Positions 1 to 46,833 of a stretch of 64,000 bases of DNA are shown piece after piece. Source of the DNA: Rhizophagus irregularis (Eukaryota). The notes beneath the pieces are model-generated. The model saw nothing but the letters and a program-made list of their open reading frames with translations, had not been told where the DNA came from and searched no databases. The translations under genes were made by a program, and so were the position numbers. The DNA is taken from positions 4,526,001-4,590,000 of the forward strand of contig NC_089435.1 of the NCBI RefSeq assembly GCF_026210795.1, given 5' to 3'. Position 1 is the stretch's first letter. Each line of letters begins with the position of its first letter.

Positions 1-602
1 AACCAATTCTAACGAGAAGTGGTTCAGATAATGAATTCCTTCATCTTCGCATAATAAACTCTTCTCCTTTTGGATTTTATTTGATAAAGTGGTCATCCCT
101 GGAATCTTCGTAGCTTCGATTATTACCTTTGGGGCATTAAGCTTCCGCAATTCCTTTTGAAGCCTACTGAGACTAGATGTGCAGGCAACCGGATTAGGGG
201 ATGTCTCAGCTAATGCTTTAGCTATAAGTTTTACTTCTTTTTCACTAAGGCTATCCCGCATAATACGCTGAGCCGTTTCTCTAATAATTTCTCCTTCTGG
301 GATAATATCTGATACTTGGTAGGCGCTTTTAGCACAGCATATATTCACTTCCGCTTCTGTATCTCCTTCTTTAGGGGTTACTTGACTTTTAGTTCGACTA
401 GTTCTTTGAGAAGGTATCAACGCAAATGCTTGTTCTTTACTAAAGTTATATCCTTTTTGAAGATGATCGTGAGCCTGACGCCTTTTCTCTCTATCACCTG
501 GTAAGAGTCAAGTATTTCTGGCGCATACCGGCTAAGCTCTTCGAGACTCATTTCATTGGTAAGTCTGTGGTCTGTAACGAACTTGGTTGTAATAGCAGAC
601 AT
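1..602 (-). pseudogene. 5' part of a frameshifted gene running off the left edge; helical protein, possibly the N-terminus of a tyrosine-recombinase/resolvase-like protein
   Basis: ORF 417..602 (MSAITTKFVTDHRL...) plus an open minus-strand frame I translated over 300..1 (PEGEIIRETAQRIMRDSLSEKEVKLIAKALAETSPNPVACTSSLSRLQKELRKLNAP...HFSLELV). No catalytic residues are in the window; the family call is recollection only. Confidence 0.35.
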
Positions 603-1034
603 GATGTGGTAAGTAGACTATGGTGGTAGTTAGATTAATCTGTGGTATTCAGATTATATATTGTGGGATAAAGTTCAATTCGAAAATATATAACTTATGG
701 GAGGTCTTTTTGAGGCCACCTGCTCCAGCTGAAATATGTTTTGCATATATTTGAAAATTGTGGGTAAATAGGATATGCGGAAAAAAAGACATAGTCATAG
801 AACCCCCATTCCAAGGCTATAAACGAATTATCTATACCGATTCACATTTTAGTAAAGTGCACGCGCTAGAGCTAATATATGTTCCAGTCCTAAAACGTTT
901 GTCTTGGTGAATGCATCATATAAAGCACTTGGTCTATATTTCGAAGGAGCTAGATTCGGATGGTAGAGGAATTTTATGAGTATATTATTTCTCTAAACTT
1001 TCGTCTCTTCATGCCTCCAGCATAATTTTAATAG

Positions 1035-1358
1035 TTAGCATAAAGTAAAATCGTGCCAATTAGCTTTGAACAAAATCTGCAATAGGCTTATTTTTTTGTT
1101 AACCACTGCTAGTAAACTCCTTTCTGATACGATACCCCAAATACGATAGGAAATGAAAGAGAGATGTCTTCTTAATATTGGTAATTCATGTAAAGGCGGA
1201 ATCAAAAGCCTTTCTTCTCTCCAATGCATATAACCATCACATAATAATTTACGATATGCTGGCCCATTTATAATGATCATGCGATTAGATTTGGGATTAT
1301 AGATTTTTTCACAGGTTTGACGCTCGCGAACTTCTGTTAGTTGATCTAATGTATCCAT
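1035..1358 (-). CDS. small protein with a 2-cysteine-adaptor-like motif (seen in large DNA viruses)
   Basis: CEKIYNPKSNRMIIINGPAYRKLLC resembles the NPxTGRxIxxxGPxYxxL 2C-adaptor consensus. Confidence 0.45.
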   Translation of the reverse strand: MDTLDQLTEVRERQTCEKIYNPKSNRMIIINGPAYRKLLCDGYMHWREERLLIPPLHELPILRRHLSFISYRIWGIVSERSLLAVVNKKISLLQILFKANWHDFTLC

Positions 1359-1469
1359 AGCGTCAGTATGAAAAGTTGTTTATGACTTATCTTAATACCG
1401 AATAATTTAAATACAATTTTTATTATGAAATTAAAAGTGAAAAAGGTTTTTATATCCTAAAATACTTAT

Positions 1470-1757
1470 ATGGATCGTGTTACTTGCCCGTATATCAAGA
1501 GAAATGGTTCCATTTGTGGGGGAGTCTGCACTTGTTTAACTGGCTGTGCAAGGCACTGGAAATTATATGAAAAAAATATGAAAAAAAAACCCTGCCTTAT
1601 TTGTGGATTTCCTACTGATGCTGATTCGGGGTATTGCTCCAAATATTGTTCCAGATATTCTGCAAAGTTTCATGCACTGAATTATCGAATGAGGCAGAAG
1701 TGTGAGGCTGAGGCCCTTCAACCCGAAATTCCCTCTGAATTGTCTGCTGAGGAGTGA
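1470..1757 (+). CDS. small Cys/His-rich putative zinc-binding protein
   Basis: CPYIKRNGSICGGVCTCLTGCARH and CLICGFPTDADSGYCSKYC clusters; ATG start, 95 aa. Confidence 0.5.
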   Translation: MDRVTCPYIKRNGSICGGVCTCLTGCARHWKLYEKNMKKKPCLICGFPTDADSGYCSKYCSRYSAKFHALNYRMRQKCEAEALQPEIPSELSAEE

Positions 1758-1949
1758 GCAAAAAATTTTATTTCATTCATTAGATGATTATTATATAAAA
1801 TTTTGGCAGAAGCCTGCATCCTGGCTGGAGTGATGCAAGAATAGAGATATTTTTTTAATAATATATACCAAAAGATGAAGCCTTCTGCGGAATTATTATA
1901 TAAAAATATGGCAAAAGGCTTCATCTACCTGATTCATAATCGAATAGTA

Positions 1950-4900
1950 TTAGAACATATCAAATAAGTCCTGAATATCTTCTGTGATTTGCGTGATATT
2001 CACTTTGCTAGAACTAGTGAGATTATCTAATATTAATTCATCGGGTGTGAGTTTACTGTAACCATATCGAGTATCTTCATCGTTTTTCCAATAAATTTCT
2101 TCACCCGTTTGATATGAAGGTAATCTAGGAGTGGATCCTTCTGGGATCGCGTCTTTATTATCAAATGAACCTACTAGGTGGTAATATCTACGATTCTTGT
2201 CTATAGTCTTAAATTTCAACTCATAGGTTGCTTGTAGTGCTGAGTTTAGTAAACCAAGTTTTGCCCGATCTGTTTTCAATCCTGATTTTTTAGCTTTGCG
2301 CGATGTATCTGAATTATCAAAAACTTGAGCCATTTTTGATACCAAATTCTGAAGATACAATATCGATTCAGGAGAATTCAGGCGTGTTTTAACATCATCA
2401 GCTTTATATCTTGATCTATCGTCGATATTTTTAGCTGGTGTACAAGTTTTTAACAATTCCAGGCAAATTTGATGCCTCTCAGCACGAGTGAAAGTTGTAA
2501 GCCTATCTTCTCTGTAATCTTTATGGGTGATAGCTTCAACAGCCGTTTCATTGTTAATGCCAGCATCTCGTAATTGTCTATAAGCTCTGAACCATCTCAT
2601 ATGATTATAATCCCCATACTTCGAAATGAAATCTTCAGTCAATGATTCGGGAGAAATCTCATAACATTCCACAATATGATGCCGGTCTAGAGATCGCATT
2701 TCTTCTAAGGTCTTCTTCGGCTTGTTTTCCAAAAATTCAGCTGTCTCATGATTGACAATAGTAGCGTTAGATATATCTGATATTTCCTCCACTTTAACTA
2801 TAGAACACTTTGCTTTTACCACTTGCAATAATGTACTTTCTTCAGATTTAGGGCCAGAGTTTATGATCGAAACGCACATGCCAGCTTTTCGAAGGAAATC
2901 AACCATCCTCCAACCAAATAAGCGCTGGGAACGAAATTTTTCTAACATATAGGCCACCCATAATCGAATGGTTGGTACATCCTTATTTCGAATAATAGAA
3001 TTGATATCTGGAAATATTCCTCTATTCTGAAGCTCTCAGGGGAGACATTCCCGTTTGGCATTTAATAACCACTGAAATAACCCTTTTTCTGTAATGGGAA
3101 CGTTAGAAGATCTCTGCTCAATATGACATATATAATCCTTAATACATCGCATGCGAAACAATATTTGATTTGTTCCAGCATTAGTTTCTATATAGCTATT
3201 GAAGAGACAGAATGCTCGCTCAAATTTTGGGTTAGTGCAAGATACTCCTATTTTTAAAGTGCTAATATAGGCAACTAGGTCTACGTGTTTCCACGGTTCT
3301 TCTACATTGCTAAAGTCATAGGCCTTTTCTGCTGGATCGGATTTACCGTGATATTCCTTGATCCGTAATTCTGGAAAATCAGTCTTAAGAGCACGAACGA
3401 TTCCTTGTACATTCTTCCTGAGATGGCAGATAAGCGAAGCACTTTTCTAATTCTCAAAAGGTAGTGAAGATATTTGCTTGGCCCAATCCCAGAGTTCAGC
3501 TAACACAGCTTCTTTATTGGGAGCCAAGCGAAATGTCTTACCTTTCTGAGGCTGGTAAGTATTATGAATAATGGAGAAAGGTATATTTTTGTGAAGAGCC
3601 TTAATCCATTCGATATTAAGGTCAGTTAGATCACTATCTATGACGATAATGCGCCTAGCATCTTGGATTAATTTATATAATTTTTCTATTGATTGCCCCG
3701 CTATATGACTTTGCGCCTGAGCAATTATAGACACTATTTCATCAAGCCATAAATTGTACTGGCTCGGGAGACATTTACATTTTTTATTACATTTACACTT
3801 CAGTTATTGGTAATGCGATGTAAACTCTCTATCTGGCAAACCACCCTCTTATGATCAGATAGATTTATATTACCATCAATATCACAATATGACTTGAGAT
3901 TAAGTCTTGTAGTAACAGCATTTGAGTAAGAGTGGCGTGTAGATAATACTAGCAAATTTACATTATTAGGGATAGCCAAATTTTCAAGAATATAGGTTTT
4001 CCCAGTTTCCCAAGGCAACCCCACATAAATATCGCCTTCATTGGGTAATTGTCTTACATACATACCTCTCCTCATATACTTCTGTCGCTGTAAGGGTCTC
4101 ATTATACTTGACTCAAGATGGCATTTTTATGAAGGCTTTAGGGAAACCTGGACCTTTTACTTTGTGAGAGGGGTGTGGAGGATTTTTATTTTCTTGCTGA
4201 ATTTTTTCTGCAATAAATGGGTCGCATTCAAAAACTTCCCCGCGCTCATCACTATTTTGCCGAAAATATTTTACGATGAATTTACTACTACTAGCGCATA
4301 CACGACCGAACCACTTCTGATCCTTGTCATGTATACGTTTACATTGTGAACATTCTAGTAAAGCTTTCCGGTTAAAATATATGAAGTTTTCTGAATCTTT
4401 TTCTTCAATAGTCCAATCCCTAAGATAGTTAGAATACTTTTGCAAAACTAGGTCCGCGCATTTTTGTAATACATCCTGACCCACGATTATCCTTAGCGGA
4501 TTATTATTTTTTTCTGTACTAAGCATTTGAGGTCTTACTTCAAGCCTTAAGCTAGTAGGTGGTTGAACTTTAGCGTGATAGAACGCATTCCACCCATTAT
4601 CTAGTGAGAATTGAAGAATACATTTTACATGACCTTTTTTTGCTGATCTGATTAGACGAAGGTTGAAGTTGTGACCAGGCAATTTCCGATCAATGAACTT
4701 GCCGAATTTTTCTCCAGTTAAGCTATATACTAATTCTAAGAATGCTTTGAGTTCATGATGATCGATAAGGAGAGCCGGTGCGTATAAAATATGGTAGCTA
4801 CACTTGCTAGAATCTGAAGATGTAGCAATAACTAACCCATTGAGAATGTTTTCCCAACTACAGTCAAGAATTCGATACAAGGCTTTTATGAAAAATAGGC

Positions 4901-5099
4901 AGATTCGAATGAATACTTCTTGCGCCTTAACACCAGTTGTTTTCATATCTTCCTGCGAAACATCTATATCAATCACGGCTCTTAAAGGCTTTTGACCATT
5001 AATACATTCATGAATCCCGGCTAAACCATATACTTCTGAAATATCGTCTACAACAGAAAACTTTGGGGCTCGATCATCTTGATCAATTTTGATAACCAA
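1950..5099 (-). pseudogene. AEP primase (PrimPol-like) fused or linked to a UL9-like origin-binding SF2 helicase; broken by stops and frameshifts
   Basis: AEP motifs LRAVIDID, KCSYHIL, FID, FNLRL and CSQCKRIH in 4113..5099. Walker A-like LPWETGKT, STRHS, CQIESLHRI, WLDEIVSII (~3730-3750), DSDL, EYHGKSD, YISTLKIGVS, QILFRMR. Collinear fragments 3800..4102, 3447..3734 and 1950..2957. Confidence 0.8.
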
Positions 5100-5318
5100 T
5101 TTATTTTCAACTTCATCTCGGTCATAGCCCTATAAAAAAATATACATACTGTTATCATACGGTATAACCGTATTTTGCGATCAGTATCTTTAAAGTATGA
5201 ATAATGTATTATTATCGTATTACACATACGGTATATATTCGGTATTCTGCATACCGTATCATACATATTGTATTAACGCACATATGTTTAACGTGAAAAT
5301 TATACTGACATAAAGAAT

Positions 5319-5763
5319 GATATCCCAGTGTGAACCGTACGTTTCCCACTGTTGATTAATTTGCGAACAGCACGATATCCCAGTGTGAACCGTACGTTTC
5401 CCACTGTTGATTAATTTGCGAACAGCACGATATCCCGTTGTGAACTGTACGTTTCCCACTGTTGATTAATTTGCGAACAGCACGATATCCTGGTGTGAAC
5501 CGTACGTTTCCCACTTTGATTAATTTGCGAATAGCACGATATCCCAGTGTGCACTGTACGTTTTCCACTTTGATTAATTTGTGAACAGCACGATATCCTG
5601 GTGTGCACCGTACGTTTCCCACTTTGATTAATTTGCGAACAGCACGATATCCCAGTGTGAACCGTACGTTTCCTATTTTGATTAATTTGCGAACAGCACG
5701 ATATCCTAGTGTGAACCGTACGTTTCCTACTTTGATTAATTTGCGAACAGCATGATATCCCAG
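5319..5763. repeat. tandem array, 8 units of 54-55 bp
   Basis: unit GATATCCCAGTGTGAACCGTACGTTTCCCACT(G)TTGATTAATTTGCGAACAGCAC starts at 5319, 5374, 5429, 5484, 5538, 5592, 5646, 5700; partial unit at 5754. Confidence 0.95.
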
Positions 5764-5984
5764 CAATCCGTATGTTTACATATTAAAAATATACCATTAG
5801 TACACGTATTTACATAGAATGTTTTTATTTTATTAATAATATAATGTATAAATAAATATAACAGATAATTTATTATTTAAATTGATATGCAATTAATAAT
5901 TTGTGTAATTAAAATCTAATAAAAGAATACTTCTATTATAGTAATAAAATTATTATAATTAAATATAGAGAAAATAAAAAAAAG

Positions 5985-6555
5985 AAAGAATTAGTAGTTA
6001 TAAAAGAAGAAGTGATAAAAAGAGATACAATTAGTAGTGATAAAAAGAAGAAAAATTAGCGGTAATAAAAAAAAAGATACAATTAGTAACGATGAAAGAA
6101 AGATACAATTAGTAGTAATAAAAGGAAGAAAAATTATTAGTGATAAAAAGAAGATACAATTAATAGCGATAGAAGAAAAATTAGTAGTGATAAAAAAAAG
6201 ATATAATTAGTAACAATAGAAGAAAGATACATTTAGTAGTAATAAAAAGAAGAAAAATTATTAGTGATAAAAAGAAGATACAATTAGTAGCGATAGAAGA
6301 AAAATTAGTAGTGATAAAAAAAAGATATAATTAGTAACAATAGAAGAAAGATACAATTAGTAGTGGTAAAAAGAAGAAAAATTAGTAGCAATGAAAGAAA
6401 GATATAATTAGTAGTGATAAAAAGAAGAAAATTAGTAATGATAAAAAATTAGTAGCGATAAAAGAAAGATACAATTAGTAGCGATGAAAGAAAGATACAA
6501 TTAGTAATGATAAAAAAAAAAGATACAATTAGTAGCGATACAATTAATAGCAATA
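5985..6555. repeat. degenerate ~20-25 bp A-rich minisatellite
   Basis: recurrent GATACAATTAGTAG(C/T)GATAAAAAGAA variants. Confidence 0.85.
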
Positions 6556-7279
6556 AAGACCGAAAATAAAAGTAACTGTACCTATTTTATTAAATTATAA
6601 ATAAATCTATTTTAGAAAAGTTCAAGACAAGATAAAAAATTAGTAATAAAGAATAATACAATTAATTATATTTAAGTTTAAAAAAATATTACTTCATAAA
6701 CGTTAAATATTTTCTTTTTGTGAAATGTATTTCTTTCTATATCTATTGGGCAACCTTTTATTTGGTATCGTTTAAAATTTTCTTCTATAAAAAAATGAAA
6801 TAAATAAATAAGTGCAATATTTGAGATAATAATTCGAATAAAAAGCAAAATAAAGAATAAAGAGTAAAAGAGAAACAGTTTGTATTTTTCCCAATTTATA
6901 TCATTCGCGTGCATGCAAAAACAAACAAATGATCGGCATCCATGTGATAATTATCCAATCATAATTTATGAATGAAAGCGATTAAATCACATGATATATA
7001 TATATCCGGGTTTATGCCGATATTGTAGATATGAATTTTTGTAAGATATAATAATATATTCGAAATTGCATTACAACATCTATTAATCTATTATGGTATA
7101 GATTTAATTTTATTCAAAATAATAAAATTTGTTCGTTATAATGCCAAACAGTCAAGTCGCGAGCGATTAGATTGATAGTTCGGTTGTTAAAATCTGAAAA
7201 TAGTCGAGCTCCACATATAAAAAGAAGAAATTAATAACGAAAAAACAAGAATCCGGAGACTATTAGAGATACCAACCAA

Positions 7280-7825
7280 TAAATTGAAATCACGATTTCA
7301 AGAAAAATTCTCGCGAATTTTTCTTGATATTGCTTATTTTAAAGTTTAAAAGACTGACTAATAAATAAATTAAAATCACGATTTCAAGAAAAATTCTTGC
7401 GAATTTTTCTTGATACTGCTTATTTTTAAATTTTAAATAAATTGAAATTACGATTTTTTAAGAAAAATTCTCGCAAATTTTTCTTGATGCTGCTTATTTT
7501 AAAGTTTAAAGACCGATTAGTAAACTGAAATCACGATTTCAAGAAAAATTCTTGCGAATTTTTCTTGATACCGCTTATTTTTAAAGTTTAAATAAATTGA
7601 AATCACGATTTTTTAAGAAAAATTCTCGCAAATTTTTCTTGATACTGCTTATTTTGAAGTTTAAAGACCGATTAGCAAACTGAAATCACGATTTCAAGAA
7701 AAATTCTCGCGAATTTTTCTTGATACCGCTTATTTTTAAAGTTTAAATAAATTGAAATCACGATTTTTTAAGAAAAATTCTCGCGAATTTTTCTTGATAC
7801 CGCTTATTTTTAAAGTTTAAAGACC
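7280..7825 (+). repeat. left subterminal repeat array, ~60-70 bp units with palindromic core
   Basis: GAAATCACGATTTCAAGAAAAATTCTCGCGAATTTTTCTTGATACCGCTTATTTT about 8 times. Confidence 0.9.
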
Positions 7826-10412
7826 GTAAAAAACTAAATATAGTGCATGTGATATTTAACCTCATTCCTTTTTTACATCAGCTCATAATTTAAACTTATT
7901 ATAAATAGCAAAGCGTGATACTGTTAAGAATTTGGTCGATTTATTATTATACGATTGAGGTTGTGAACGGGATCTCAGCCATCTTTTATGAATCAATTAA
8001 ATTCAAATCTTTTGACGCCACCAGTTCATTTGATTAGATTTTATAAAAAATTTGTTTATTATTATTTATTGTATATTTTATGCTGTACATATCCGGATGT
8101 AAACTAAAAATATTTGTTTTAATATTTTAAAATAATAACGGATTAATTAATTAACAATAATAAAAAATTTAATCAAATTATTTAATTTAATGATCAAGGC
8201 TTTTAATAATCAAGGCTTTTTAATGATCAAGGCTTTTTAACGGTCAAAGCTTTTAATAAACACGGCTTAATTTTAATTAAACATCTTTATTAGATTACAG
8301 ATTTCTTCTTTTCGATGATACATATGGTACCTTCAGATATTGTTTTTCGAATGTTAAAGCTAAGAAATCCGGATCTCAGCCCATCATCTATCTAATTAAA
8401 AAAATTTTGTCATATTTAGATTACCTGGTATAAATAATTTGAATTGTGTAATATTGAAAAGTGTGATATTCTTGCGTTCAATCTATTTCGTAATTATCAT
8501 ATCATAATTAACTAACTACGATAGCCAATCTTTAAACTAATACATTTATAGTTAATTAAATTTTAACTGGATTTTAATACTAACAAAAAAAAGTATAATT
8601 TCTCTTATGCATTTATTTGCAGTCATTTCCACTCTTTTAGTTACCACGAACTATTTCTATAATAATAATTTTTACTAAAAAACCGAAACTACCTTTTTAG
8701 TCTTTTTTTTATTAATTTTTTATCCCTCTTTTTATCATTATTGTTTCTTTTGGTTAACTTAACCAAAATTTTTTTATTCTTATTGGATTTTTTTTTAGGG
8801 GTTTTTTTTTAATCGGAATTTATCAAAATTTTGGATTTTTTTTTAACCCAAAAAATATACCCTGTAAAAAATCTGATCCGTGTTTTATCTTTCCATATTT
8901 TTTTCTGTAAATGCATCATTTTAATGGAATTTATAGCCTTAAATCATGGAAATTTTCATCTCGCTAACACGGATATCCGTGAATGTATCATTTTCACAGA
9001 ATTTTTACGGAAGACACAGAGAAATAATGGAAATATTCGGATAAAAATTTTTTATAGGAATAGTTTATTCTTTTTTTTGGTTTGGGTTAAGACTATAGAA
9101 CTATGTCCTACGGCTTTTTGTGAGATTTTTTTTAGTCAATGATATTGTTCTGACTAATAAATTTGTGTGAAAATTTTTTTTTTAGTGAGAATTTTTGATT
9201 TAGTGAGAACTTTTTCTGTTTATTGAGATTTTTTTTTCGATTTAATGAGAATTTTTTTTATAAGATTGATTTTTTCAATATTATTTCTGACTAATAAATT
9301 TGTGAAAAATTTTTTTGATATTAACGAATTTTTTTGTGAGATTGTTTATAATTATATAGATATTTTGTATTAAATCAATAATAAATTTTTTGATAAATCT
9401 ATATAACTAAAAAAACTATATAACTAAAAAAATTTGTCTGACGTTTGGACTAGTTTTATTTGATTATATATAGATTGAAATTCGAAGAAAATAGTACCAA
9501 CAAAACTTTTTTATTAAAAGACCAAAATACATATATATTTTATTAATTAGTATGCCTTTGTGTACATGTACTCACTGTAAAGCTTTAACAAATGGTATTG
9601 GAAAAGAAATTCATAGAACAACAGTAATTCGTCATATGAAAAAAGAACAAGAGGAGCAAGAACTAGAAAATGCATACCAAAGTCTTCATTCTGAAGAAAA
9701 TTATTTTGAAGAAAATGAAGAAAATGAAGAAGAAAACTCATATGAAGAACGCTCATCTCCTATGGAAATATCGGAAATATCTGACAATGAAGAAATTCTT
9801 ATAGAGGAAGAAAATCTTACTACCTTACATAATGATGAGGCTTCTATGGAAATTCTCTCCAGTTTTTAAGATGAGGATGAGGAAATTGATGATTACTATC
9901 ATGAAAGCGATGACTTAAACCATTATGATTCTCAAAGTGAATTAGAGTTTGATACCTCTGATGATAAAGAAGGTGAATTTCGAAATAATTATAATAATAT
10001 TTTAAATTAGTAATTTACCAACTTTTTTTAGATAATACGACTTTTTCTAATGAATTGTTCGAAGGATTAAGGCTTTTATATGTGAAATCGAATTTTAATT
10101 TTTCTGAAGCAGCATTTAATAATATATATAAAGCCTTCAATAGAAATAAAATAAGTTTTAATAAAGTAAAAAGAAAGCTTGGTTCAATAGTAGGAATTGA
10201 ACCAAAAATATATGATATGTGCGTTAATTCATGTTGTGCATTCGTAGGAGTTTTAGAAAATGAAACAAAATGTAAATTTTGTAAGGAGGATCGATATTAT
10301 AGTAATGGTAAAGCGAGAAAAAATCTACCTTTTATTTCTATAATTGAGCGTTTAAAGCTTCAATTTAAAAACCCTGAAAGATCTAAAGAACTATTATATA
10401 GGCACAATTATA

Positions 10413-11373
10413 CAGTCAACTCTCTTTATAGTCACACATTTGGGACAGTCCATATTTGGTGATTGTAAAGAGATGTGACTATATAAAAAATTTCTTATAT
10501 TTGTATATCATAATTCCGGCCAAAAATTAACATAATTTTAGCCAGAATTATACTTAAAACTTTATTGTATCGTAACTTCGCCAATATTAATCGTAGAGAG
10601 ATGATCTTACCGCCATTCGATTCGTCTTGATGAGACGGTTCTAATGGTATAAAATACGTCGAAATCCAATCACTAGATTAATTTCCGAAATTAAAAAAAT
10701 ATTAATGGTTTTTGTGTAATAACTCTGCCAATATTGATCCTAGAAAGACGATCTTACTACCATTCGATTCATCTTGATGAGACGAATCTAATGGTATAAG
10801 ATACATCGAAATCCAATCACTAGATCAATTTCCGAAATTAAAAAATATTAAATGGTTTTTAAGTAATAACTCCGTCAATATTGATCACAGAGAGATGAGC
10901 TTACCACCATTCGATTCGTCTCGATGAGGCGATTCCAACGAGCTATAAATCGTCCTTTTACGATCACTAGGTACTGAGAAATCTAGCAAAATGTTAAATG
11001 GCGCAGTAAACGTAAATCAAGAAATATTATAATGCCGATGTTCAACATTTTGTTGAATAACTCGTCAGCCAGTGATAGGAAAAGGATAAAACTACCACCA
11101 TTCGATTCGTCTCAGTGAGACGATTCTAACAAGCTATGATACATCTTTGTACGATTATTAGATGCCAAGTTATTTAATATATTCTTTATATAACTGTGAT
11201 TATAAACGGTTCTTTTTAATATAAGATTTTTAAGGATAGGTGTGATAGTGACTATAGATAGATTGTGACTATATAGGATAGATTTTAATAATAAAGTGTT
11301 TTGAACATTCAACTGGTGTGACTATATAGTAGAATGTGACTATAACGGGAGTGACTATAGAGGGAGTTGACTG
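10413..11373 (+). mobile_element. Tc1/mariner-type MITE, family A, empty copy
   Basis: TIR CAGTCAACTC(T/C)CT(T/C)TATAGTCAC; TA duplication at 10411-12 and 11374-75; removing it restores the transposase frame RHNYTCNKGEF. Confidence 0.95.
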
Positions 11374-11543
11374 TACTTGTAATAAAGGAGAATTTGCTCA
11401 TAATAACATAGGTAACATCTTTGATGGACAGATTTATCAAGAATTATTAAATGACGAATATTTTCCCGATCCAAGAGACATCGCATTTACTGCTTCTTGC
11501 GACGGCTACCAAATATTTCGTCAAAAGACCGATGATTGTTGGG

Positions 11544-11787
11544 TAAGGTTGCTTGTCTAAACCTCTTCAAAATCCTACGATTAGTTTCGTCAAAATTTTA
11601 CTATAGATTTATTATAGTTTCGGCAGAGTTTTGGCAGTTTCGGCATTTATAATAAGTTTCGGCAGTTTCGCCATTCTCCAAAGTTTCGCCAGTTTTTTAA
11701 TATAACTTTAATATAGTTTCGGCAGAATTTCGCTTTTCGGCGAAACGCTATCTTGCCTAAACCCCTAGGTTTCGGCAAGCAACCTTA
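11544..11787. mobile_element. hAT-type MITE, family B
   Basis: TIR TAAGGTTGCTTG...CAAGCAACCTTA; 8-bp TSD TTGTTGGG/TTGTTAGG. Confidence 0.9.
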
Positions 11788-14184
11788 TTGTTAGGTGTTC
11801 CTGTTTCTAAATAATAATTTACCTCAAGAATTAAGAGTAAAAAAAGAAAATTTAATGGTAACTTTAATAATCCCGAGGCTAAAACAACCTCAAGATTTTA
11901 ATTCATTTCTCTATCCATTAATTCAAGAAATGAAATCCTTACAAGGTATATTTTAAATAAATGGTACGTAATAAATGTAATATTTATTAATAATATTTTT
12001 AATATTTACAGATGGAATCTCTTGTTACGATGGTAACAAAGAGGAACAGTTTACTCTACGTGCTTACATTCTGGCTTGGACTGGCGATATCCCTGCCCTT
12101 TCAAAGGTTCTATGTTTAACAGGACATAATTCATACTCAGGTTGCAGATTTTGTAATCTTCGAGGGACTTTAAATGAAACGAATAGACATGTGTATTATC
12201 CATTGCAACAAAATATTAATCCTAAACGATTACCAATTCGAACACATGATGAAATACTGAATAGCACAAATCAAATAGAACGTCTGGAGAGAGATCGTAA
12301 AGAAACTTATATACGTGACTGCAGTTGGTCCAATATTTTAAAATAAAAATAAATTCTTAGTAATTAATATTAATATATTTTCTCAATTTTAAAAATTTTT
12401 TGTTTAATAAAAAAAATTAGGAATTAAAGGAAAGAGTATTTTATTTGAGTTATCTTCTATAAATTTTACACGTTCATTTCCAGTAGATATAATGCACCTT
12501 TTTTTCGAAAATGTTGCACCCCATATGTTTCGACATTGGATAGGAAAATTCTATCCAAAAAATAATGAATGGAACTCAAATGAATATACAATAAGTTCTA
12601 AAACATGGGTTGAAATTGGTGAAATCATGGAACGAAGTAGATCTCATATGCCACCTGATATTAGACCTCCTCCACGCAATATCGTTAAATATTAAGCTGG
12701 GTTTAAAGCTGTAGAGTGGGTTAATTGGATCATTTTATTCTCTTTACCATTACTAAAAGGGCGATTGCCGCAAAGGTAATAAAAAAAATCAAATTGTTGG
12801 CAGATAAAATAATAAAAAGTCTGCTGATAACATTATTTAACTTAAAATAATAGTAACCTCTTAGGATGGTCAAGATTTGTTGAAGCTGTCAAGTTATGCA
12901 TTCAACCTCTAATAGAATTTGAAGAGCTAGATTTAATTCGAAATTTATTAATAGAATTTTACAATCATTATGCAAAGTAATTTTCTTATGAAATTTATAT
13001 ATGCCTTTTTCTTTAAACGATATTTTTATTGATCGCGTGAATTTTTTTGTGCAATAGTTCATATGGCATTGGAGGAGAAAGATTACCGGCATTTTTAATT
13101 TCTTTTCATTATTTATTACATGTAATAGATTCGATTGAAGACTTTAGCCCTTGTCGTGGATTTTGGCAGTTTTCGATGGAGAGGTTTTGTGGAATGTTAA
13201 TTCCACTTGTTAGCTCTTGAAAACTACCATATGTGAATTTGTTTAATAATGTGTTGATGCAAGAAAGATTTAAGTATCTGCAACTTTTACCAATATATAA
13301 TGAAAAAGTTTTTTCCAATTTTAAAGAAAAAGAAAAAAAAACATGGCCGGTGCATAGAGTATATTCTAATGAATTATATGTTCACGAATATGAATTTTAT
13401 TCACCATTTGTTAATTGTATATTAACAAAAAATGAAGTCATAAAGTTAAAGCAATGTTATGCAGCTATATTTCAAAAGAATACTAGCGAAATTACAGTGA
13501 TTTTATATTATAACTCACATAATAATATGTATAAGAATATTCTTTTTTAAAAAAAATAATATATAATTTTTTTTATATAGAACATTAAAGAAAACTATGC
13601 TAAGTATGGAAAACTTCGTACAAAGGATGGTAACATTATATCATCTAAGTGGTGGAAAAAAGAAAATGATAGTAGTCGAAATGATTTTTGCGTCGCTGTA
13701 AGAAATAAATATATTAATTATTATTATTGTTTCATTATATATTCAAAATTCAAAATATTAATAAGATAATTTTATTATATAGATTAATTTAACTGTTGAC
13801 TTACAAGAAAGAAATTACCGTGCTCCTCTAAATTTGAGAGAAGAAGAAATTTTTGGACAAATTGAATATTTTATGGTTCATGAATTTCAAAATCAAGAAG
13901 CGAATGTTTGCATATATTCGAAAAATCAAAAAATTAGAGAAAAATAGTAGTGTGAATTTAAAATTTTTTGATAGTTTTGGTCCTTTACAATATGTGGAAG
14001 TAATTGGTATTGATAGAAATGTCAGATTTTTTGAAGTACTCCTTGAAAAAAAAATATTATTATATAATAGATAAATATGAAAATTGGTAATAAAAATCTT
14101 TACCTTGAAAATTCATATTATTAATTCTCTAATAAATAAGAAATATTTGCTTAAATTTTTTTTTCTTTGAATTTACATAAATAA

Positions 14185-14700
14185 GAAATTCTCGCAAATT
14201 TTTCTTAGTGATCGTGATTTTAGTTTACTAATCGGTCTTTAAACTTTAAAAATAAGCAGTATCAAGAAAAATTCGCGAGAATTTTTCTTGAAATCGTGAT
14301 TTCAGTTTGCTAATCGGTCTTTAAACTTTAAAATAAGCAGCATCAAGAAAAATTCACGAGAATTTTTCTTAAAAAATCGTGATTTCAATTTATTTAAACT
14401 TTAAAAATAAGCGGTATCAAGAAAAATTCGCGAGAATTTTTCTTGAAATCGTGATTTCAGTTTGCTAATCGGTCTTTAAACTTTAAAATAAGCGAGCATG
14501 AAAAATTCATGAGAATTTTTCTTAAAAAATCGTGATTTCAATTTATTTAAACTTTAAAAATAAGCGGTATCAAGAAAAATTCGCGAGAATTTTTCTTGAA
14601 ATCGTGATTTCAGTTTGCTAATCGGTCTTTAAACTTTAAAATAAGCAGTATCAAGAAAAATTCGCGAGAATTTTTCTAGAAATTGTGATTTTTAGTTTAC
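14185..14700 (-). repeat. right subterminal repeat array, inverted relative to 7280..7825
   Basis: AAATAAGCGGTATCAAGAAAAATTCGCGAGAATTTTTCTTGAAATCGTGATTTC repeats; degenerate copies continue to ~15110. Confidence 0.9.
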
Positions 14701-15939
14701 CGTATACGGAATTTATTTTTATTTTTTTTTTTTACCGTATACGGAATTTAATACGGAATTTATAAAAACGTATATCAAATATATATAAAACGTATCATTT
14801 CCATATACAGATTTCTTATAGTTTGAACTTAAAATAAAAATTCAACGATATTAAGGAAAATACTCGCGAATTTTTCTTAAATTAAGCAGTAGATCGGTTG
14901 AACCTTAAAAAATAAGCGGTATTAAGGAAAATTCTCGCGAATTTTTCTTAAATTAAGCAGTAGATGTAGATCGGACTTTGAACATTAAAATTAAGCAGTA
15001 TTTTGCGCTTTAAAGATTAAATACTATTAAGAAAATTTCGCGCGAATTTTTATTGATGATCGTAATTTAAATTGGACGTTAAAAATAAGCAGTAATAAGA
15101 AAATTTTACTAATCAGGGTTTGTACTTTAAAAAAAATTTATTAAGGAAATTGTCCTGAATTTTATTAATGAATGCGATGTGGTATATGACGAAAGATCAT
15201 ATTCATGCCTTCCGAGCGTGTTTTTTCTTTAAAATATTTTTCGGTGACATATTGTATCTGTTTAAATATTATGGAATTGAATTTTTTACCATTTTTATAT
15301 TGGCGTTCATGTAACAAGAAGGGTTCAAGTTGATTCGAAAAATCTTCCTGATTTAAAATACTATGCGATAGTCTATTCTATCATTTCACTTGATTTGGCG
15401 TTCGTTCGATATCAAATCGCAATTTGGAATATTCTTTATAATATACCCATTTTGGTGAGTGTCACTGAGTGATCGTAAGTAATATTAGCAGGATTTTCCA
15501 TAACTTTCATTTTTTCTGTATGGTATTTTCGTAGTGTGACTTTATAACTGACATCTAACCTACTGGAGTGTATTCTTTTAAGTTGGGCGTGGGGTCTACC
15601 GTATGTAGGGTTGACAACGCCGTATCTAGTATAAAGTTGTAAAGTTAATAAAAACAATAAAAACAAATACAATATCCAGTACAACTATAGAAAATACGTT
15701 ATAAACGTATGAATTTAATATAGTATACACAGTCTTTAGAATAATACATTATATACGTATGGATTAAATATACCGTATCCTTCATTTATAATATTTTTTG
15801 CGAACAGTATACAAAATACTGATATACAGTAGAAATAGTATACGTTTCAAACGTATGAATTTAGATACCGTATCACACAGTATATTTACCGTATACTTTA
15901 TTGTATTTTTTGCTAAACACATTTTGCGAACAGTATACA

Positions 15940-16431
15940 TTATACTGTTATACAGTATATAAAAATACGAACCGTATCAAAGATACATGTATACAGTGTA
16001 AAAACCGTATGCATATTTTTTATAGGGTAGGCATTATACAAACAGGAGCCTTTTTCATTCAGAAAGAGGAATGAATAGATTGGGAGATCATCCAAAGAAC
16101 CTATGATATCTGACATATCTCTAGGTGGTGATAGGAAAATTTCCTGAATGGTATTTAGCAAGTCCTTGGAAGAAAAATTATCATTAAACTTTTCCTGCCT
16201 TAAAGAGTACTGAAATGATGGGATCGTGGTAATGCTGGTTGAGGCGCAGGTAGCTTCTTCATTATCTGACCCATAATTAGACTCATAGTCATTATAACCA
16301 TCTGACCTTAAGTCAGATCTATTATCAGTACAACTGCTCAAATCACTTAAATATTCATCGGGGCCGGCACCGTCATAGCGGGTGAGAGTTTCAGTGTGAT
16401 CAGTTTGGTCAAAATTAGTTGGTGTATGCAT
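15940..16431 (-). CDS. hypothetical acidic Ser/Asp-rich protein
   Basis: 163-aa ATG-initiated ORF with coding-like composition; no domain recognised. Confidence 0.35.
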   Translation of the reverse strand: MHTPTNFDQTDHTETLTRYDGAGPDEYLSDLSSCTDNRSDLRSDGYNDYESNYGSDNEEATCASTSITTIPSFQYSLRQEKFNDNFSSKDLLNTIQEIFLSPPRDMSDIIGSLDDLPIYSFLFLNEKGSCLYNAYPIKNMHTVFTLYTCIFDTVRIFIYCITV

Positions 16432-16938
16432 GTTGTTAGTTTGAAAATGTTTATATTACTTTATAAAATTCGGAAATGTTTAATTATTTTTTTTCGATAA
16501 ATACAAAAAGAAATGATAGCGAACTTAGTAGGAAAAATGTAAAAGAAAGACATCCAGATATATCTGTAAAAATGAAGCTTTCTGCAGAATTATATTATAT
16601 AAAAATGGCAGAAGGCTTCATTTTTAGATAAGTACTCGGGTATGATATAGCCTTCGCGTAATATAGAGGCATACCAAAAAGAGATACGAAGTTGGCACCT
16701 CCAATTCTCTAACCAAATGATCCACTAGCCCAAACCCCAAATGCCACTCAAATATTCCTCAAATATCCCTTAAAAGTTGCGGAAAGGGAAGACTAGAGCC
16801 TGGCCACGTGATATCAAAAATTTAGGCGCAGTAAGTTAACGATAATTTTGGCAAGATTTTTGGATACAATAATTCAGCATTCATGGTAGGTGAACTAATA
16901 GAATATCCCTGAATTGATACTGTGCTGGATGTCATCTG

Positions 16939-17155
16939 ACACCGAGCCCTCTGGGATCACTATCATATGATTCTCCTAACAATATGTGTATGGAGTATCA
17001 CTTGACACAGAGCCCTTTGGGATTACTATCATATGATTCTTCTAACAATATATGCGTAGAGTATCACAAAAACTTTAGGCGCAATAAATTAACAATATAT
17101 GCATAAGTCACTGAGCCCTCTGGGACTACTATCATATGACACTCCTAACAATATA
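16939..17155. repeat. three ~45-65 bp direct repeats
   Basis: GAGCCCTCTGGGA(T/C)(C/T)ACTATCATATGA(TT/CA)CTCCTAACAATAT three times. Confidence 0.8.
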
Positions 17156-18040
17156 CATATCTACTCGCGACACCCATTTTAGAAAAAAAAAATGATGTGT
17201 AGTAAATTTTGATTAATTTTGGCCAGCACTATTTCATAATTTCAGCCAGAACTTTAGGTAATATTTCGGCATCCAAGCTGGCATAAAAGTGAACTGGAAC
17301 TGGCAAACTAATAGAGCACTCACAGTTTTGCCAGTTCCACTGACAGTTCTACGGTAGCTACCAGGTCGCTATCAGGTCACTACTACGCCAAGCCGTTAGG
17401 CTGGATCCTCAAATCACATGCCCAAAAGATCGGCTGGAATTATGACATAGTGTCCAGCCAAAATTAATCGCAGATTTACATCGAAATACTGCGCCACTCG
17501 ACACCATATTTTTTTACCACATTTCAGCATCTAGAAAGGCAACCAAATAGGCACAAAGAAACGGTAAGTACTTCAATATAGAATTTGACATTCAATCAGA
17601 CGTGAAAGGTCGTATCAACAATATATAACTTAAATTACAAATAGAGTAGAAACAGGAAGAAAAGAGAGGTACCTAGGTTAAAGTGTGGGGGTATTTAGAT
17701 TATAACGTGGTAATAAAATCATACATAAGAGAAAAATACAGATATCAAGAAAGGTATAAAAATATAGCTAGAATGTGAATAAAGATAGCATCAAAATAAA
17801 AGGGGTAGATTATAGTGTAGTAGCCAGATTATGTATTCAGATTAAAGCGTGGTAATTAGGTCATAGTAATTAGATTATAGCATGATATTTAGGTTATAGT
17901 GTGGTATCTAGAATATAACGTGGTATTCAGATTATAATATGATATTTAAATTATAGTGTGGTACTATAACCTAATCCAAGTGGGATACCACGCTATAATA
18001 TAATTATATTATAGCGTGGTATCCCACTCAAGTCTGTCAG

Positions 18041-19957
18041 TAGAGCTCCGAATGGGTCAAGTCAGGTCAGGTTAATTGATAAACCTGACCTGAAATTTTT
18101 TTTCAGGTCAGGTCAGGTCAGGTTATATCAGGTTGTCTGTTTGACCTGACCTGACCTGAAACCTGAAAAATTTTCAGGACTATTTTTATTAAAGTATTAA
18201 AAAAAAACGGTCAAAACTTTTTTTTTAATATAATATTATGAAAAAAAACGTTTTTGCAACGTTTTTTATTAAAATATTGAAAAAAAATATTGCAAAACAT
18301 TTTTTTTAAATGTTTTCGCTAGAGCTCCGAACAGGTCAGCCAAATTCAGGTAACCTGACCTGACCTGACCTGAAATTCAGGTCAGGTATGAAATTTTTAA
18401 AAAAAATTCAGGTCAGGTATGAAGATTGACCTGACCTGATTGACCTGTTGACCTGAAACTATTGATTCTACTATATAATAAAAGTGAGTTGCAGTATTGC
18501 GATTCACTTTTTTATATTGATTTTATATAATAAAAGTGAGTTGCAGTATTGTGATTCACTTTTTTATATAGAATATATATAAAAAAGTGAATCGCAATAC
18601 CGCAACTCACTTTTTTTATATAGAATCTATATAAAAAAGTGAATCGCAATACCGCAACTCACTTTTTTTATATAGAATCTATATAAAAAAGTGAATCGCA
18701 ATACCGCAACTCACTTTTTTTATATAGAATCTATATAAAAAAGTGAATCGCAATACCGCAACTCACTTTTTTTATACAAAATCAATATAAAAAAGTGAAT
18801 TGCAGTATTTGGATTCACTTTTTTATATGATTTTAATATAAAAATGTTGAATCGCAATATTTCGAGAAAAAACGTTGCGAAAACGTTTTTTCATAATATT
18901 ATATTAAAAAAATGTTTCGTAACGTTTTTTTTTGATATTTCAATAATAACGTTGCGAAAACATTTTTTTCATAATGTTATATTAAAAAAAACGGTTTGCA
19001 ATATTTTTTTCAATATTTTAATAAAAAACGTTGCAAAAATGTTTTTTTTCATAATATTATATTAAAAAAAAAAGTTTTGTACTATTTTTTTTCAATACTT
19101 TAATAAAAATAGTCCTGAAATTTTTCAGGTTTCAGGTCAGGTCAGGTCAAACAGACAACCTGATATAACCTGACTTGACCTGACCTGAAAAAAAATTTCA
19201 GGTCAGGTTTATCAATTAACCTGACCTGACCTGACCCATTCGGAGCTCTAGTTTTCGCAACGTTATTATTGAAATATCAAAAAAAAAAACGTTACGAAAC
19301 ATTTTTTTAATATAATATTATGAAAAAACGTTTTTGCAACGTTTTTTCTCGAAATATTGCGATTCAACATTTTTATATAAAAAAGTGAATCCCAATACTG
19401 CAATTCACTTTTTTATATTGATTTTGTATAAAAAAAGTGAGTTGCGGTATTGCGATTCACTTTTTTATATAGATTCTATATAAAAAAAGTGAGTTGCGGT
19501 ATTGCGATTCACTTTTTTTATATAGAATTAATATAAAAACGTGAATCGCAATATCGCAACTCACTTTTATTATATAAAATCAATATAAAAAAGTGAATCG
19601 CAATACCGCAACTCACTTTTATTATATAAAATCAATATAAAAAAGTGAATCGCAATACCGCAACTCACTTTTTTTATATAGAATCTATATAAAAAAGTGA
19701 ATCGCAATACCGCAACTCACTTTTTTTATATAGAATCTATATAAAAAAGTGAATCGCAATACCGCAACTCACTTTTATTATATAAAATCAATATAAAAAA
19801 GTGAATCGCAATACTGCAACTCACTTTTATTATATAGTAAAATCAATAGTTTCAGGTCATCAGGTCAATCAGGTCAGGTCAATCTTCATACCTGACCTGA
19901 ATTTCAGGTCAGGTCAGGTCAGGTTACCTGAATTTGGCTGACCTGTTCGGAGCTCTA
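18041..19957. mobile_element. hAT-type MITE, family C, outer copy
   Basis: termini TAGAGCTCCGAA...TTCGGAGCTCTA; ACCTG/CAGGT pentamer arrays; internal ~52-54 bp AAGTGAATCGCAATACCGCAACTCACTT repeats; flanks AGTCTGTCAG / AGTCTGTG give only an imperfect TSD. Confidence 0.85.
18320..19250. mobile_element. family C MITE nested in opposite orientation inside the outer copy
   Basis: same TIR; perfect 8-bp TSD GTTTTCGC at 18312-19 and 19251-58. Confidence 0.93.
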
Positions 19958-21295: not shown

Positions 21296-21937
21296 TAGAA
21301 TTTCGAACAGGTTGACCAAATTCAGGTAACCTGACAGGTTGACCTGAATTTTTCAGGTCAGGTTTAGCAATTGCAATTCAGCATCAGTTTAGGTTGTAAG
21401 TATAACCTGAATGACCTGTTGACCTGAAACTATGATTTTATATAATAAGTGAGTTATGGTATTATAATTCACTTTTTATATTGATTTTATATAATAAAAG
21501 TGAATTGCGATATTGGGATTCACTTTTTTATATTGATTTTATATATAAAAAGTGAACTGCGGCATCAGAATTCACTTTTTTATATCGATTATATATATAA
21601 AAGTGAATTGCGGTATCGGAATTCACTTTTTTATATCGATTTTATATATAAAAAGTGAATTTCGGTATCGGAATTCGCTTTTTTATATTGATTTTGTATT
21701 TAAAAAGTTAGTTGCGGTATTGCGATTCACCTTTTTTTATGATTTTAATATAAAAAACTGAATCGCAATATTTCAGAAAAAATGTTTTGCACCATTTTTT
21801 TTGATATTTTAATATAAATCCTGAAAAATTTTCAGGTTTCAGTTCAGGTCAGGTCAAACAGATAATCTGATATAACCTGACCTGAAAAAAAATTTCAGGT
21901 CAGGTTTATCACCTGACCTGACCCATTCGGAACTCTA
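21296..21937. mobile_element. diverged family C MITE
   Basis: TAGAATTTCGAACAGG...CCCATTCGGAACTCTA; same internal repeats. Confidence 0.8.
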
Positions 21938-26790: not shown

Positions 26791-26872
26791 CTAATATTCT
26801 CTCTTTTTTTTTCTAACATCAAAATATTTCTCTCCCCCTCTCCTCCAATTTATTTTATTTTTTTTATTAAGA

Positions 26873-35691: not shown

Positions 35692-36257
35692 ATTTTTTTT
35701 TATCTTATTTTAATTTGTTTTAATTAATATATTATCAGTCAAAAATCGATTGAATAAGAAAGAGTAAGAGAAAAAAAAAGTGTAGTATTTTTTTTTTTTA
35801 CCTTCTTTTTCTTAAATAGGTGAAACAATGAAACACTAATTTATTGCAAAATGAATATCGGATATTTCATTTCTTTATTTACATATTTATGACTAAACTT
35901 TCTAAATTAGTATAAATTAGTACTAGTCTAAAAAAAAATGAAACCAGGATCTTTATATTAGATTTTAGCGACACAAATAGAGTAATTGTGAAGTGAAAAT
36001 GGTACTCTCATCGAGTTATAATACTAGTACTTTTTTATTACGTTATTTTTTCCATAAGCAGTGATATATCAAGATCTTGTGAAAGATGATTGGCTGAAAT
36101 AAGGTCATCAGACTTGAAAACATGATCAAACTATAAAAAAAAAAACCTTGTGATACAATCAAAAGCATAAATATATAAGGGCGTCATAATAAGGGCGTAT
36201 TATAAACAATTTGTTTTTAAAACGCATTGGCTTTTGAACTTTGTTGTTTTTTAAACA

Positions 36258-46779: not shown

Positions 46780-46833
46780 TTGTTCTTTTTTTTTTTTCCC
46801 CCTTCTTTATTACCGATTTATCAGTGTGTAATA

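What the first reader, a model, noticed from the sequence alone, without database searches (positions are those of the whole stretch)
1..5763. Virus/plasmid-like replication module: AEP primase-UL9-like helicase, 2C-adaptor-like ORF, Zn-finger ORF, possible recombinase, repeat array
Seen: compact, apparently intronless ORFs with AEP and SF2 motifs, now pseudogenised. Established: AEP primases, UL9-like origin-binding helicases and 2-cysteine adaptor domains occur in large DNA viruses and are not standard fungal genes. Inference: relic of a self-replicating integrating element. The gene leaving the left edge may be a tyrosine recombinase/telomere-resolvase-like integrase (recollection, unverified).
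Basis: partly seen in the sequence, partly recalled or inferred. Interest (0 to 1): 0.72.

Follow-up and report, generated by a model that had tools for sequence, protein, structure and literature searches.

The report
Fungal hairpin-telomere mobile element
This is a broken copy of a repeated DNA element, likely from a root-symbiotic (mycorrhizal) fungus, that pairs a virus-like DNA replication gene with a gene predicted to make a hairpin-telomere enzyme and ends in a perfect 50-base palindrome, so it likely once copied itself as a small linear DNA with sealed hairpin ends, as some phages and algal viruses do.

Summary
The module is real and larger than reported. The left gene is predicted to be a protelomerase (hairpin telomere resolvase), not an ordinary integrase. 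A model of a full-length homolog matches TelA, TelK and ResT (Z 13.5, 13.0, 8.7) above lambda integrase and Cre (7.4, 6.5), with R-K-R-H-Y conserved. The AEP primase/UL9-like helicase gene is split by a 10.9-kb CACTA-type transposon (5128-16027). The 54-bp array belongs to that transposon, not to the module. The element continues to 18028 and ends in seven 17-bp repeats and a perfect 50-bp palindrome built from the same unit. In other sequencing runs, shared sequence stops at the palindrome's outer edge, with at least four different flanks. The window's gene order recurs in 3 of 21 informative metagenome loci; 8 of 21 carry a D5-like helicase gene instead. Named relatives are all glomeromycete fungi. 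Best reading: an integrated relic of an N15-like linear, hairpin-ended replicon. Enzyme activity, a free form, the left end, the integration route and capsid genes were not seen or tested.

The parts
1..602 (-). 5' part of a predicted protelomerase (telomere resolvase) gene; frameshift near 507; runs off the window's left edge. The database gene model of this locus (P0122) ends before the last three catalytic residues.
   Evidence: 88-89% identical to full-length homologs P0123/P0124; frames; model and fold searches; P0122 sequence
631..647 (+). Single degenerate copy of the 17-bp terminal repeat unit just upstream of the protelomerase gene; likely an autoregulatory binding site (inferred)
   Evidence: 4 mismatches here; a copy at about the same place upstream of the gene in 11 of the 64 metagenome loci
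849..1358 (-). Conserved accessory ORF with a weak 2-cysteine-adaptor-like N-terminus; stops at 1037 and 995
   Evidence: PF08793 below cut-off in one homolog
1470..1757 (+). Intact 95-codon Cys/His-rich ORF, likely zinc-binding; no family assigned
   Evidence: homologs at 31-48% in L004, L032, L044, L045, L057, L064
1873..1926 (.). Imperfect inverted repeat around an AT-rich core; candidate origin or initiator-binding site (inferred)
   Evidence: second copy at 16567-16626; kept with altered but still complementary arms in L044 and L045
1950..5127 (-). Main part of the AEP primase - Zn ribbon - UL9-like SF2 helicase gene; stops at 4115, 3449, 3038; frameshifts near 4060 and 3800
5128..16027 (.). 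Inserted 10.9-kb CACTA/CMC-type DNA transposon (not part of the element): terminal inverted repeats starting CCCTATA, 3-bp duplication TAG, Transposase_21 remnant at 11981-12346
   Evidence: depth step and mixed flanks at 16027
5319..5763 (.). 54-bp tandem array, a subterminal repeat of the inserted transposon
   Evidence: an 11-bp motif of the unit recurs only at 15797 and 15923, near the transposon's other end; not found in 64 element loci
16028..16431 (-). First 142 codons of the primase-helicase gene
   Evidence: tblastn of homolog P0026 residues 1-142, 64% identity, continuing at residue 141 from 5129
16567..16626 (.). Second copy of the spaced inverted repeat, upstream of the primase-helicase gene
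   Evidence: 19-bp arms, 95% complementary, 22-bp spacer
16932..17166 (.). Three copies of a 66-bp repeat in the element's right non-coding arm; role unknown
   Evidence: region multi-copy
17696..17963 (+). Seven direct copies of a 17-bp unit; likely accessory binding sites for the protelomerase (inferred)
   Evidence: 1-2 mismatches each
17979..18028 (.). [quoted passage not shown]
   Evidence: flanks diverge at its outer edge

Best explanation
The locus is a decayed, chromosome-embedded copy of a repeated fungal element that likely replicated as a linear DNA with hairpin ends, using its own primase-helicase and a predicted protelomerase that would cut and reseal the terminal 50-bp palindrome. 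Shown: gene content, breaks, the nested transposon, the palindrome, repetition, and a sharp right boundary. Predicted from structure: the left gene is a telomere resolvase. Inferred steps: (1) The AEP/UL9-like protein binds an internal origin (candidate: the spaced inverted repeats on either side of its gene), unwinds and primes; a host polymerase would elongate, since no processive polymerase gene was seen. (2) Replication through a hairpin makes a palindromic junction. (3) The resolvase dimer binds the two inverted 17-bp units and cuts at the symmetric centre (18003/18004), restoring hairpins. (4) The extra units and the unit before the resolvase gene serve as accessory and autoregulatory sites. 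(5) Copies enter chromosomes with a 25-bp outer arm of the palindrome retained, either by host repair of a resolvase-protected end or by an integrase in the unseen left part. This last step is the least supported.
For: Fold of full-length homolog P0124 (pLDDT 87). Of 48,161 chains, the only four with Z of 8 or more are protelomerases: TelA 13.5 (rmsd 4.9, 258 aligned), TelA 13.2, TelK 13.0, ResT 8.7; lambda Int scores 7.4 and Cre 6.5. Foldseek top hits: TelA in PDB (E 1.8e-3, TM 0.48) and EhV-86 telomere resolvase in BFVD (E 1.2e-4). Atlas: 18 of 30 hits are ResT-TelK_cat clusters at up to 0.94. Catalytic residues in 16 diverse rows: R212 16, K231 15, R302 15, H331 13, Y343 11. hhalign to 14 TelN-family proteins aligns the first R and K (E 0.002, probability 12.9%). 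The palindrome has a symmetric centre, is the longest non-dinucleotide perfect palindrome in the window, and exceeds the longest (16-28 bp) in 20 shuffles. N15 telRL is 56 bp; TelT needs 28-bp arms (passages). The palindrome region is covered by several distinct contigs in 4 of 4 runs, and at least four different flanks begin within 1 bp of its outer edge. Gene order is kept at about 50% protein identity in L044, L045, L057. Median dN/dS is 0.29 over 24 pairs of uninterrupted resolvase frames.
Against: No free linear or hairpin molecule was seen; contigs cannot show one. No activity was tested. The Pfam ResT/TelK model did not hit any of 16 diverse members. The profile match to TelN is weak, and Cre is nearly tied with TelA by Foldseek E-value. 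Shared Atlas features (146-153 of 256) are below the level typical of true family members. Known protelomerase replicons either do not integrate (N15, recalled) or use a separate integrase and an internal telRL (phaeoviruses); here the palindrome sits at an integrated end, which resolution alone does not explain. An active resolvase would break the chromosome at this site. The left end lies outside the window. Most copies are decayed: 8 of 53 metagenome loci with 150 or more aligned codons were uninterrupted. The link between the enzyme and the palindrome rests on co-occurrence in one window and on a shared 17-bp unit.
Confidence: 0.6

Rival explanations
1. The element is a self-replicating tyrosine-recombinase transposon: the protelomerase-fold enzyme has been repurposed as integrase/excisionase, the terminal repeats and palindrome are its att-type binding sites, and a circular intermediate is amplified by the primase-helicase. 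No hairpin form exists.
For: Many dispersed copies with a boundary sharp to 1 bp and unrelated flanks. No other integrase was seen in the window or in 64 loci. Phaeovirus att ends also carry an inverted repeat and imperfect direct repeats (passages). Cre is close behind TelA by Foldseek E-value.
Against: Tyrosine recombinases cross over between two inverted sites (established knowledge), which here is the palindrome centre, yet all copies keep 25 bp beyond the centre. The spacer is fully symmetric, as in telomere-resolution sites. Structure favours protelomerases by about 6 Z units.
Confidence: 0.22
2. The module is the replication and genome-end arm of a larger temperate DNA virus or satellite of the fungus, whose capsid and integrase genes lie beyond the left edge or were lost.
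For: Primase and resolvase are both nearest to giant-virus proteins among annotated hits. Phaeoviruses combine a telomere resolvase with integration. A 1.5-Mb giant-virus insertion is known in R. irregularis (abstract and passages). Upstream helicase modules are swapped (UL9-like or D5-like), as in mosaic viruses.
Against: No capsid, packaging ATPase or PolB ORF appears in the window part or in the flanks examined (up to 2.5 kb downstream). What follows the resolvase is a coiled-coil ORF, then F-box/LRR or aspartic-protease-like ORFs. No relative was found in IMG/VR. The right arm ends 1.6 kb from the helicase gene.
Confidence: 0.13
3. The genes are passive cargo spread by other transposons or segmental duplication, and the palindrome is an unrelated miniature repeat that happens to lie nearby.
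For: The window is dense in transposons. No single contig spans helicase gene to palindrome in another sample.
Against: Overlapping contigs and joints chain 16028 to 18018 in other runs, at a summed depth far below that of the neighbouring transposons. The palindrome's unit recurs upstream of the resolvase gene in 11 loci. Purifying selection acts on the resolvase across copies. GC is 36% in both element parts and 27% in the insertion.
Confidence: 0.05

Closest known systems
Phage N15-type linear plasmid prophages (TelN, telRL, replication gene 37)
   Same: Protelomerase-fold enzyme, a 50-56 bp palindrome and a replication gene in one element; a copy of the site lies near the resolvase gene (N15 record; mechanism from passages of PMC13685816).
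   Different: Fungal host; AEP/UL9-like or D5-like helicase; many chromosomal copies; palindrome at an integrated end; only 10-15% identity to solved protelomerases; no capsid or partition genes seen.
Phaeovirus endogenous elements (Ectocarpus EVEs, EsV-1) and EhV-86 telomere resolvase
   Same: Eukaryotic host, integrated state, telomere resolvase with a telRL-like palindrome (passages of PMC13236599); EhV-86 protein is the best viral fold match.
   Different: Those are giant viruses with capsids, a separate tyrosine integrase, att ends and an internal telRL. Here the module is a few kb, no second recombinase was seen, and the palindrome is terminal.
PAST telomeric transposons of cyanobacteria (TelT)
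   Same: A mobile element that carries its own protelomerase and cognate telomere (passages of bioRxiv 10.1101/2024.11.13.623437).
   Different: PAST moves with TnsBC/TniQ and sits at chromosome ends. This copy is internal, has a primase-helicase and shows no Tn7-like genes.
AEP-UL9 replication proteins: HSV-1 UL9/UL52, NCLDV C962R-like AEP, bacterial CyRepA1 (NF042913)
   Same: Helicase part matches UL9 and CyRepA1 plasmid initiators (E 9e-43, 147 bits; 22-25% identity to 18 plasmid records). Primase part matches C962R/UL52 clusters.
   Different: Below the CyRepA1 cut-off of 200 bits; expanded as a fungal multi-copy family and linked to a protelomerase.
Fungal tyrosine-recombinase transposons (Crypton, Glomhopper/DUF3504, Starship/DUF3435, DIRS, Ngaro)
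   Same: Same enzyme superfamily, same hosts for Glomhoppers (abstract and Background of PMC13465315); possible cargo genes as in Starships.
   Different: No DUF3504, DUF3435 or Phage_integrase hit in 16 members; protelomerase-like fold; carries a replication gene and a terminal palindrome, which those sections do not describe.

Membership tests
Protelomerases (ResT/TelK/TelA) | Protelomerase fold, distinct from integrases | tested here: met
   four protelomerase chains on top, Z 13.5-8.7, against 7.4 or less for integrases; searches agree
Protelomerases (ResT/TelK/TelA) | Catalytic R-K-R-H-Y set | tested here: met
   (16, 15, 15, 13, 11 of 16 rows); only R and K were aligned to TelN directly
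Protelomerases (ResT/TelK/TelA) | Sequence match to Pfam ResT-TelK_cat | tested here: inconclusive
   no hit in 16 members or 12 proteins; language-model features do match
Protelomerases (ResT/TelK/TelA) | Cognate palindromic target in cis | tested here: inconclusive
   50-bp perfect palindrome at the element's end, unit repeated before the gene; binding not shown
Protelomerases (ResT/TelK/TelA) | Hairpin formation on the target | not testable with these tools
   needs a biochemical assay
Linear hairpin-ended replicons (N15 type) | Free linear molecule with closed ends | not testable with these tools
   only short-read contigs were available
Linear hairpin-ended replicons (N15 type) | Own replication initiator | tested here: met
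   AEP/UL9-like gene; D5-like alternative with DUF5906
AEP-UL9 primase-helicases | AEP motifs and Zn ribbon fused to UL9-like SF2 helicase | tested here: met
   the structure model was too poor to add much (pLDDT 43.8)
CyRepA1 (NF042913) | Score above curated cut-off | tested here: not met
   80-147 bits against 200
Crypton/Glomhopper/Starship transposons | DUF3504 or DUF3435 recombinase | tested here: not met
   no such Pfam hit in 16 members
Crypton/Glomhopper/Starship transposons | Short direct repeats at both ends | not testable with these tools
   left end outside the window; no genome held
Endogenous giant virus or Polinton-like virus | Capsid, packaging ATPase, PolB genes | tested here: inconclusive
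   none in window ORFs or short flanks; the left part is unseen
2-cysteine adaptor domain (PF08793) | Pfam match above cut-off | tested here: not met
   no hit for the window ORF; 14.7 bits against 22 in 1 of 28 homolog models
CACTA/CMC transposon (the insertion) | CMC-type termini, 2-4 bp duplication, Transposase_21 | tested here: met
   CCC termini and TAG duplication; PF02992 E 1.7e-6, 27.9 bits against 28.6 on a fragment; the terminus rule is recalled

The most novel reading that the evidence does not exclude
A new class of eukaryotic self-replicating mobile DNA: a capsid-less nuclear replicon of mycorrhizal fungi that is bounded by telomere-resolution palindromes, is released from chromosomes as a hairpin-ended linear plasmid by its own protelomerase, swaps UL9-like and D5-like primase-helicase modules, and carries F-box/LRR genes between sites and species.
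Probability: 0.3. Interest if true: 0.92.

Novelty: new variant of a known kind. Interest (0 to 1): 0.8.

Why it matters
Hairpin telomere resolvases are known from bacteria, phages and algal giant viruses. My searches of the held library found no paper with both 'protelomerase' and 'mycorrhizal', and one unrelated paper with 'telomere resolvase', 'fungal genomes' and 'viral'. About two-thirds of R. irregularis repeats were reported as unclassified (passages of PMC11075540); this names a candidate family among them. If active, it would be a nuclear linear plasmid in fungi, a source of programmed chromosome breaks, a possible carrier of F-box/LRR genes, and a eukaryote-adapted protelomerase with a predicted target that can be tested in one assay.

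Tried and rejected
No genome was held, so the left end and empty sites could not be read. Sequence searches did not identify the resolvase: Pfam, PHROGs, NCBIfam, PDB profiles (22, 44) and phage tblastn gave nothing significant. No relatives in IMG/VR for the primase, helicase, resolvase or palindrome (12, 29, 46, 47, 113) or in prokaryote genomes (118); these scans need short exact words and miss distant relatives. A search with six distant, unnamed homologs returned only 3 of its own inputs, so their hosts are unknown. The primase-helicase model was poor (pLDDT 43.8); its fold searches gave only weak, consistent hints (giant-virus primases; HSV helicase-primase Z 5.1). The 54-bp array as replication origin: rejected. 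An ORF end upstream of the Cys-rich gene in L004, L032, L059 and L064 looked like the helicase tail, but hhalign found only 19 columns (probability 2.9%), so I do not count those four as the same gene. Contigs that run unbroken to the palindrome centre plus 15 bases might hint at a free hairpin form, but the same words appear in several contigs, so I draw nothing from it. In 3 of 4 runs no contig continued into the window's right flank; this is not proof of absence. No RNA holder was listed. The look-ups of earlier findings by sequence were empty. Supplements of the papers were not read, including the curated R. irregularis repeat library of PMC11075540, which may already hold this family under another label.
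Full report
Setting. The window is AT-rich (30% GC) and full of transposon remnants. All named hits of the helicase query among the 120 listed of 164 and of the left-gene query (21 hits) are glomeromycete fungi: Rhizophagus, Glomus, Funneliformis, Entrophospora, Paraglomus, Cetraspora, Diversispora, Gigaspora, Scutellospora. The host is therefore likely an arbuscular mycorrhizal fungus (inference).

Observation. The minus-strand frames from 5127 to 1950 align with intact homologs at 75-87% identity. They carry stops at 4115, 3449 and 3038 and frameshifts near 4060 and 3800. The helicase part matches PF02399 in 25 of 28 homologs, HSV-1 UL9 in the PDB (E 3e-4) and, below cut-off, the plasmid initiator CyRepA1. 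The N-terminal part has AEP motifs and lies next to AEP_C962R and UL52 clusters in the Atlas (0.95-0.98). The Cys-rich ORF is intact but unassigned. The 2C-adaptor label is only a sub-threshold resemblance.

The array is not part of the module. The first 142 codons of the primase-helicase gene lie at 16431-16028 and join the rest exactly across a 10,900-bp insertion (5128-16027). The insertion has terminal inverted repeats, a 3-bp duplication and a Transposase_21 remnant. The 54-bp array is 190 bp inside this insertion. An 11-bp motif of its unit recurs only near the insertion's other end, and the unit was not found in any of 64 element loci. Summed contig depth in four runs drops 5- to 8-fold across 16027.

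The left gene. Full-length homologs are about 365-390 aa. Sixteen rows down to 29% identity conserve R212, K231, R302, H331 and Y343. No sequence library named the family. A confident model of P0124 did: TelA, TelA, TelK and ResT are the only chains with Z of 8 or more among 48,161, ahead of lambda integrase and Cre. Foldseek ranks TelA first in the PDB with Cre close by E-value but lower by TM-score (0.48-0.51 against 0.32-0.36), and EhV-86 telomere resolvase first among viral models. The Atlas agrees. Profile comparison with TelN proteins is weak but aligns the first two catalytic residues. This copy is dead: it has a frameshift near 507, and its database gene model ends before R302. Among uninterrupted copies dN/dS is 0.29 (24 pairs, 0.21-0.44); among 45 interrupted ones it is 0.38.

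The right end. Beyond the helicase start the element continues for 1.6 kb: a spaced inverted repeat that also occurs just past the gene's 3' end, three 66-bp repeats, seven 17-bp units, and a perfect 50-bp palindrome (17979-18028) made of two inverted units. The same unit sits just upstream of the resolvase gene in the window and in 11 of 64 loci (13 loci had a match; 2 were elsewhere). Contigs from four runs cover 16028-18018 as a chain of overlapping pieces and joints, though none spans it whole. At higher zoom, summed depth is several times that of single contigs up to the palindrome and falls to one contig or none after 18029. Different flanks start within 1 bp of the outer edge: the window's own (run X9), one shared by X9 and X11, one in X16 on a divergent copy, and one to three more entering at the mirror position in X11 and X16, one of which matches only part of the palindrome. 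Five loose-end rows were not shown. The window's flank is a hAT-like remnant (label recalled from its BED-finger-like ORF).

Other loci. Sixty-four short soil-metagenome contigs hold the resolvase gene. Of 21 with at least 500 bases upstream, 3 show the window's full order (L044, L045, L057; L044 and L045 are near-identical), 4 have the Cys-rich gene behind an unidentified ORF end, 8 have a D5-like helicase gene (DUF5906 confirmed in L021 and L046; the rest by similarity to L021), and 6 show none of these. L001 pairs a resolvase 91% identical to P0124 with the D5-like type, so replication modules are exchanged. Of 39 loci with at least 200 bases downstream, 30 have a conserved coiled-coil ORF; F-box or LRR ORFs follow in 4 and an aspartic-protease-like ORF in 3. 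The 90% cluster of P0124 includes three Rhizophagus species and Glomus cerebriforme, which suggests recent spread between species or strong constraint (inference). Database names GLOIN_2v1778877 (helicase) and GLOIN_2v1778880 (resolvase) are three tags apart, as the four-gene order predicts.

Mechanism. A protelomerase-fold enzyme, a symmetric palindrome of the size used by N15 and TelT, and a primase-helicase are the parts of a linear hairpin-ended replicon. I put 0.6 on that reading. The geometry argues against a simple integrase: a recombinase dimer acts at the centre of two inverted sites, yet copies keep 25 bp beyond the centre. The gap in the reading is integration. The 25-bp arm could be the enzyme's footprint on a broken replication junction captured by host repair, or the crossover of an unseen integrase next to the telomere site, as in phaeoviruses. 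Neither was tested.

Literature. Nine paper searches plus one on telomeric transposons listed no description of this element; I saw at most 20 rows per search. Read: PMC13465315 abstract and Background; passages of PMC10640383, PMC11075540, PMC13685816, PMC13236599 and bioRxiv 10.1101/2024.11.13.623437. Others were seen as listings only. Subscription journals and Repbase were not searchable.

Verdict. Real, larger than reported, and more unusual: a candidate protelomerase-bearing mobile replicon family in mycorrhizal fungi. It works like N15-type or phaeovirus telomere systems by prediction, and is not a member of the Crypton, Glomhopper or Starship families by the domain tests run. Interest 0.8.

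Noticed in passing
window 9495-14100, inside the insertion: Fragmented CACTA-type transposase, flanked by long inverted arrays of 74-155 bp units (7278-7826 and 14237-14691) that may mark a second nested element.
   Followed up: partly
window 18041-19957: Two nested non-autonomous elements with termini beginning TAGAGCTCC; the inner one (18320-19250) has an 8-bp duplication; 52-bp arrays inside. A related copy lies at 21296-21937.
   Followed up: no
window 44669-52208: Long non-LTR retrotransposon (gag-like ORF, endonuclease, reverse transcriptase, RNase H motifs by eye) with few breaks.
   Followed up: no
window 53295-55193: Uninterrupted 632-aa hAT transposase (DUF659, Dimer_Tnp_hAT), with a perfect 30-bp palindrome at 55477-55506.
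   Followed up: partly
window 36255-37859: Single-ORF 534-aa F-box protein (PF12937, E 1e-4), the same broad class as the ORFs found downstream of the element in other loci.
   Followed up: partly
window 26795-28090: 431-aa ORF with a signal-peptide-like start and an HEFLHGLG metalloprotease-like motif; no Pfam hit at E 0.05.
   Followed up: partly
window 15940-16455: The open frame holding the helicase N-terminus reads on into the transposon end, giving a chimeric ORF that a gene caller would take for a gene.
   Followed up: yes
proteins P0225, P0228, P0245, P0262, P0275, P0285: Distant (29-36%) resolvase homologs with intact catalytic residues on unnamed contigs of up to 22 kb; hosts unknown, possibly outside mycorrhizal fungi.
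   Followed up: partly
L004:2548-2823, L040:1860-2234, L020:1783-2121: Downstream of the coiled-coil ORF, an ORF with a weak retrotransposon-gag hit (E 0.01) and, in other loci, an aspartic-protease-like ORF (E 1.5e-4); could be element genes or captured retroelement pieces.
   Followed up: partly
L055:966-1427: NUMOD4-HNH endonuclease ORF downstream of a resolvase copy.
   Followed up: no
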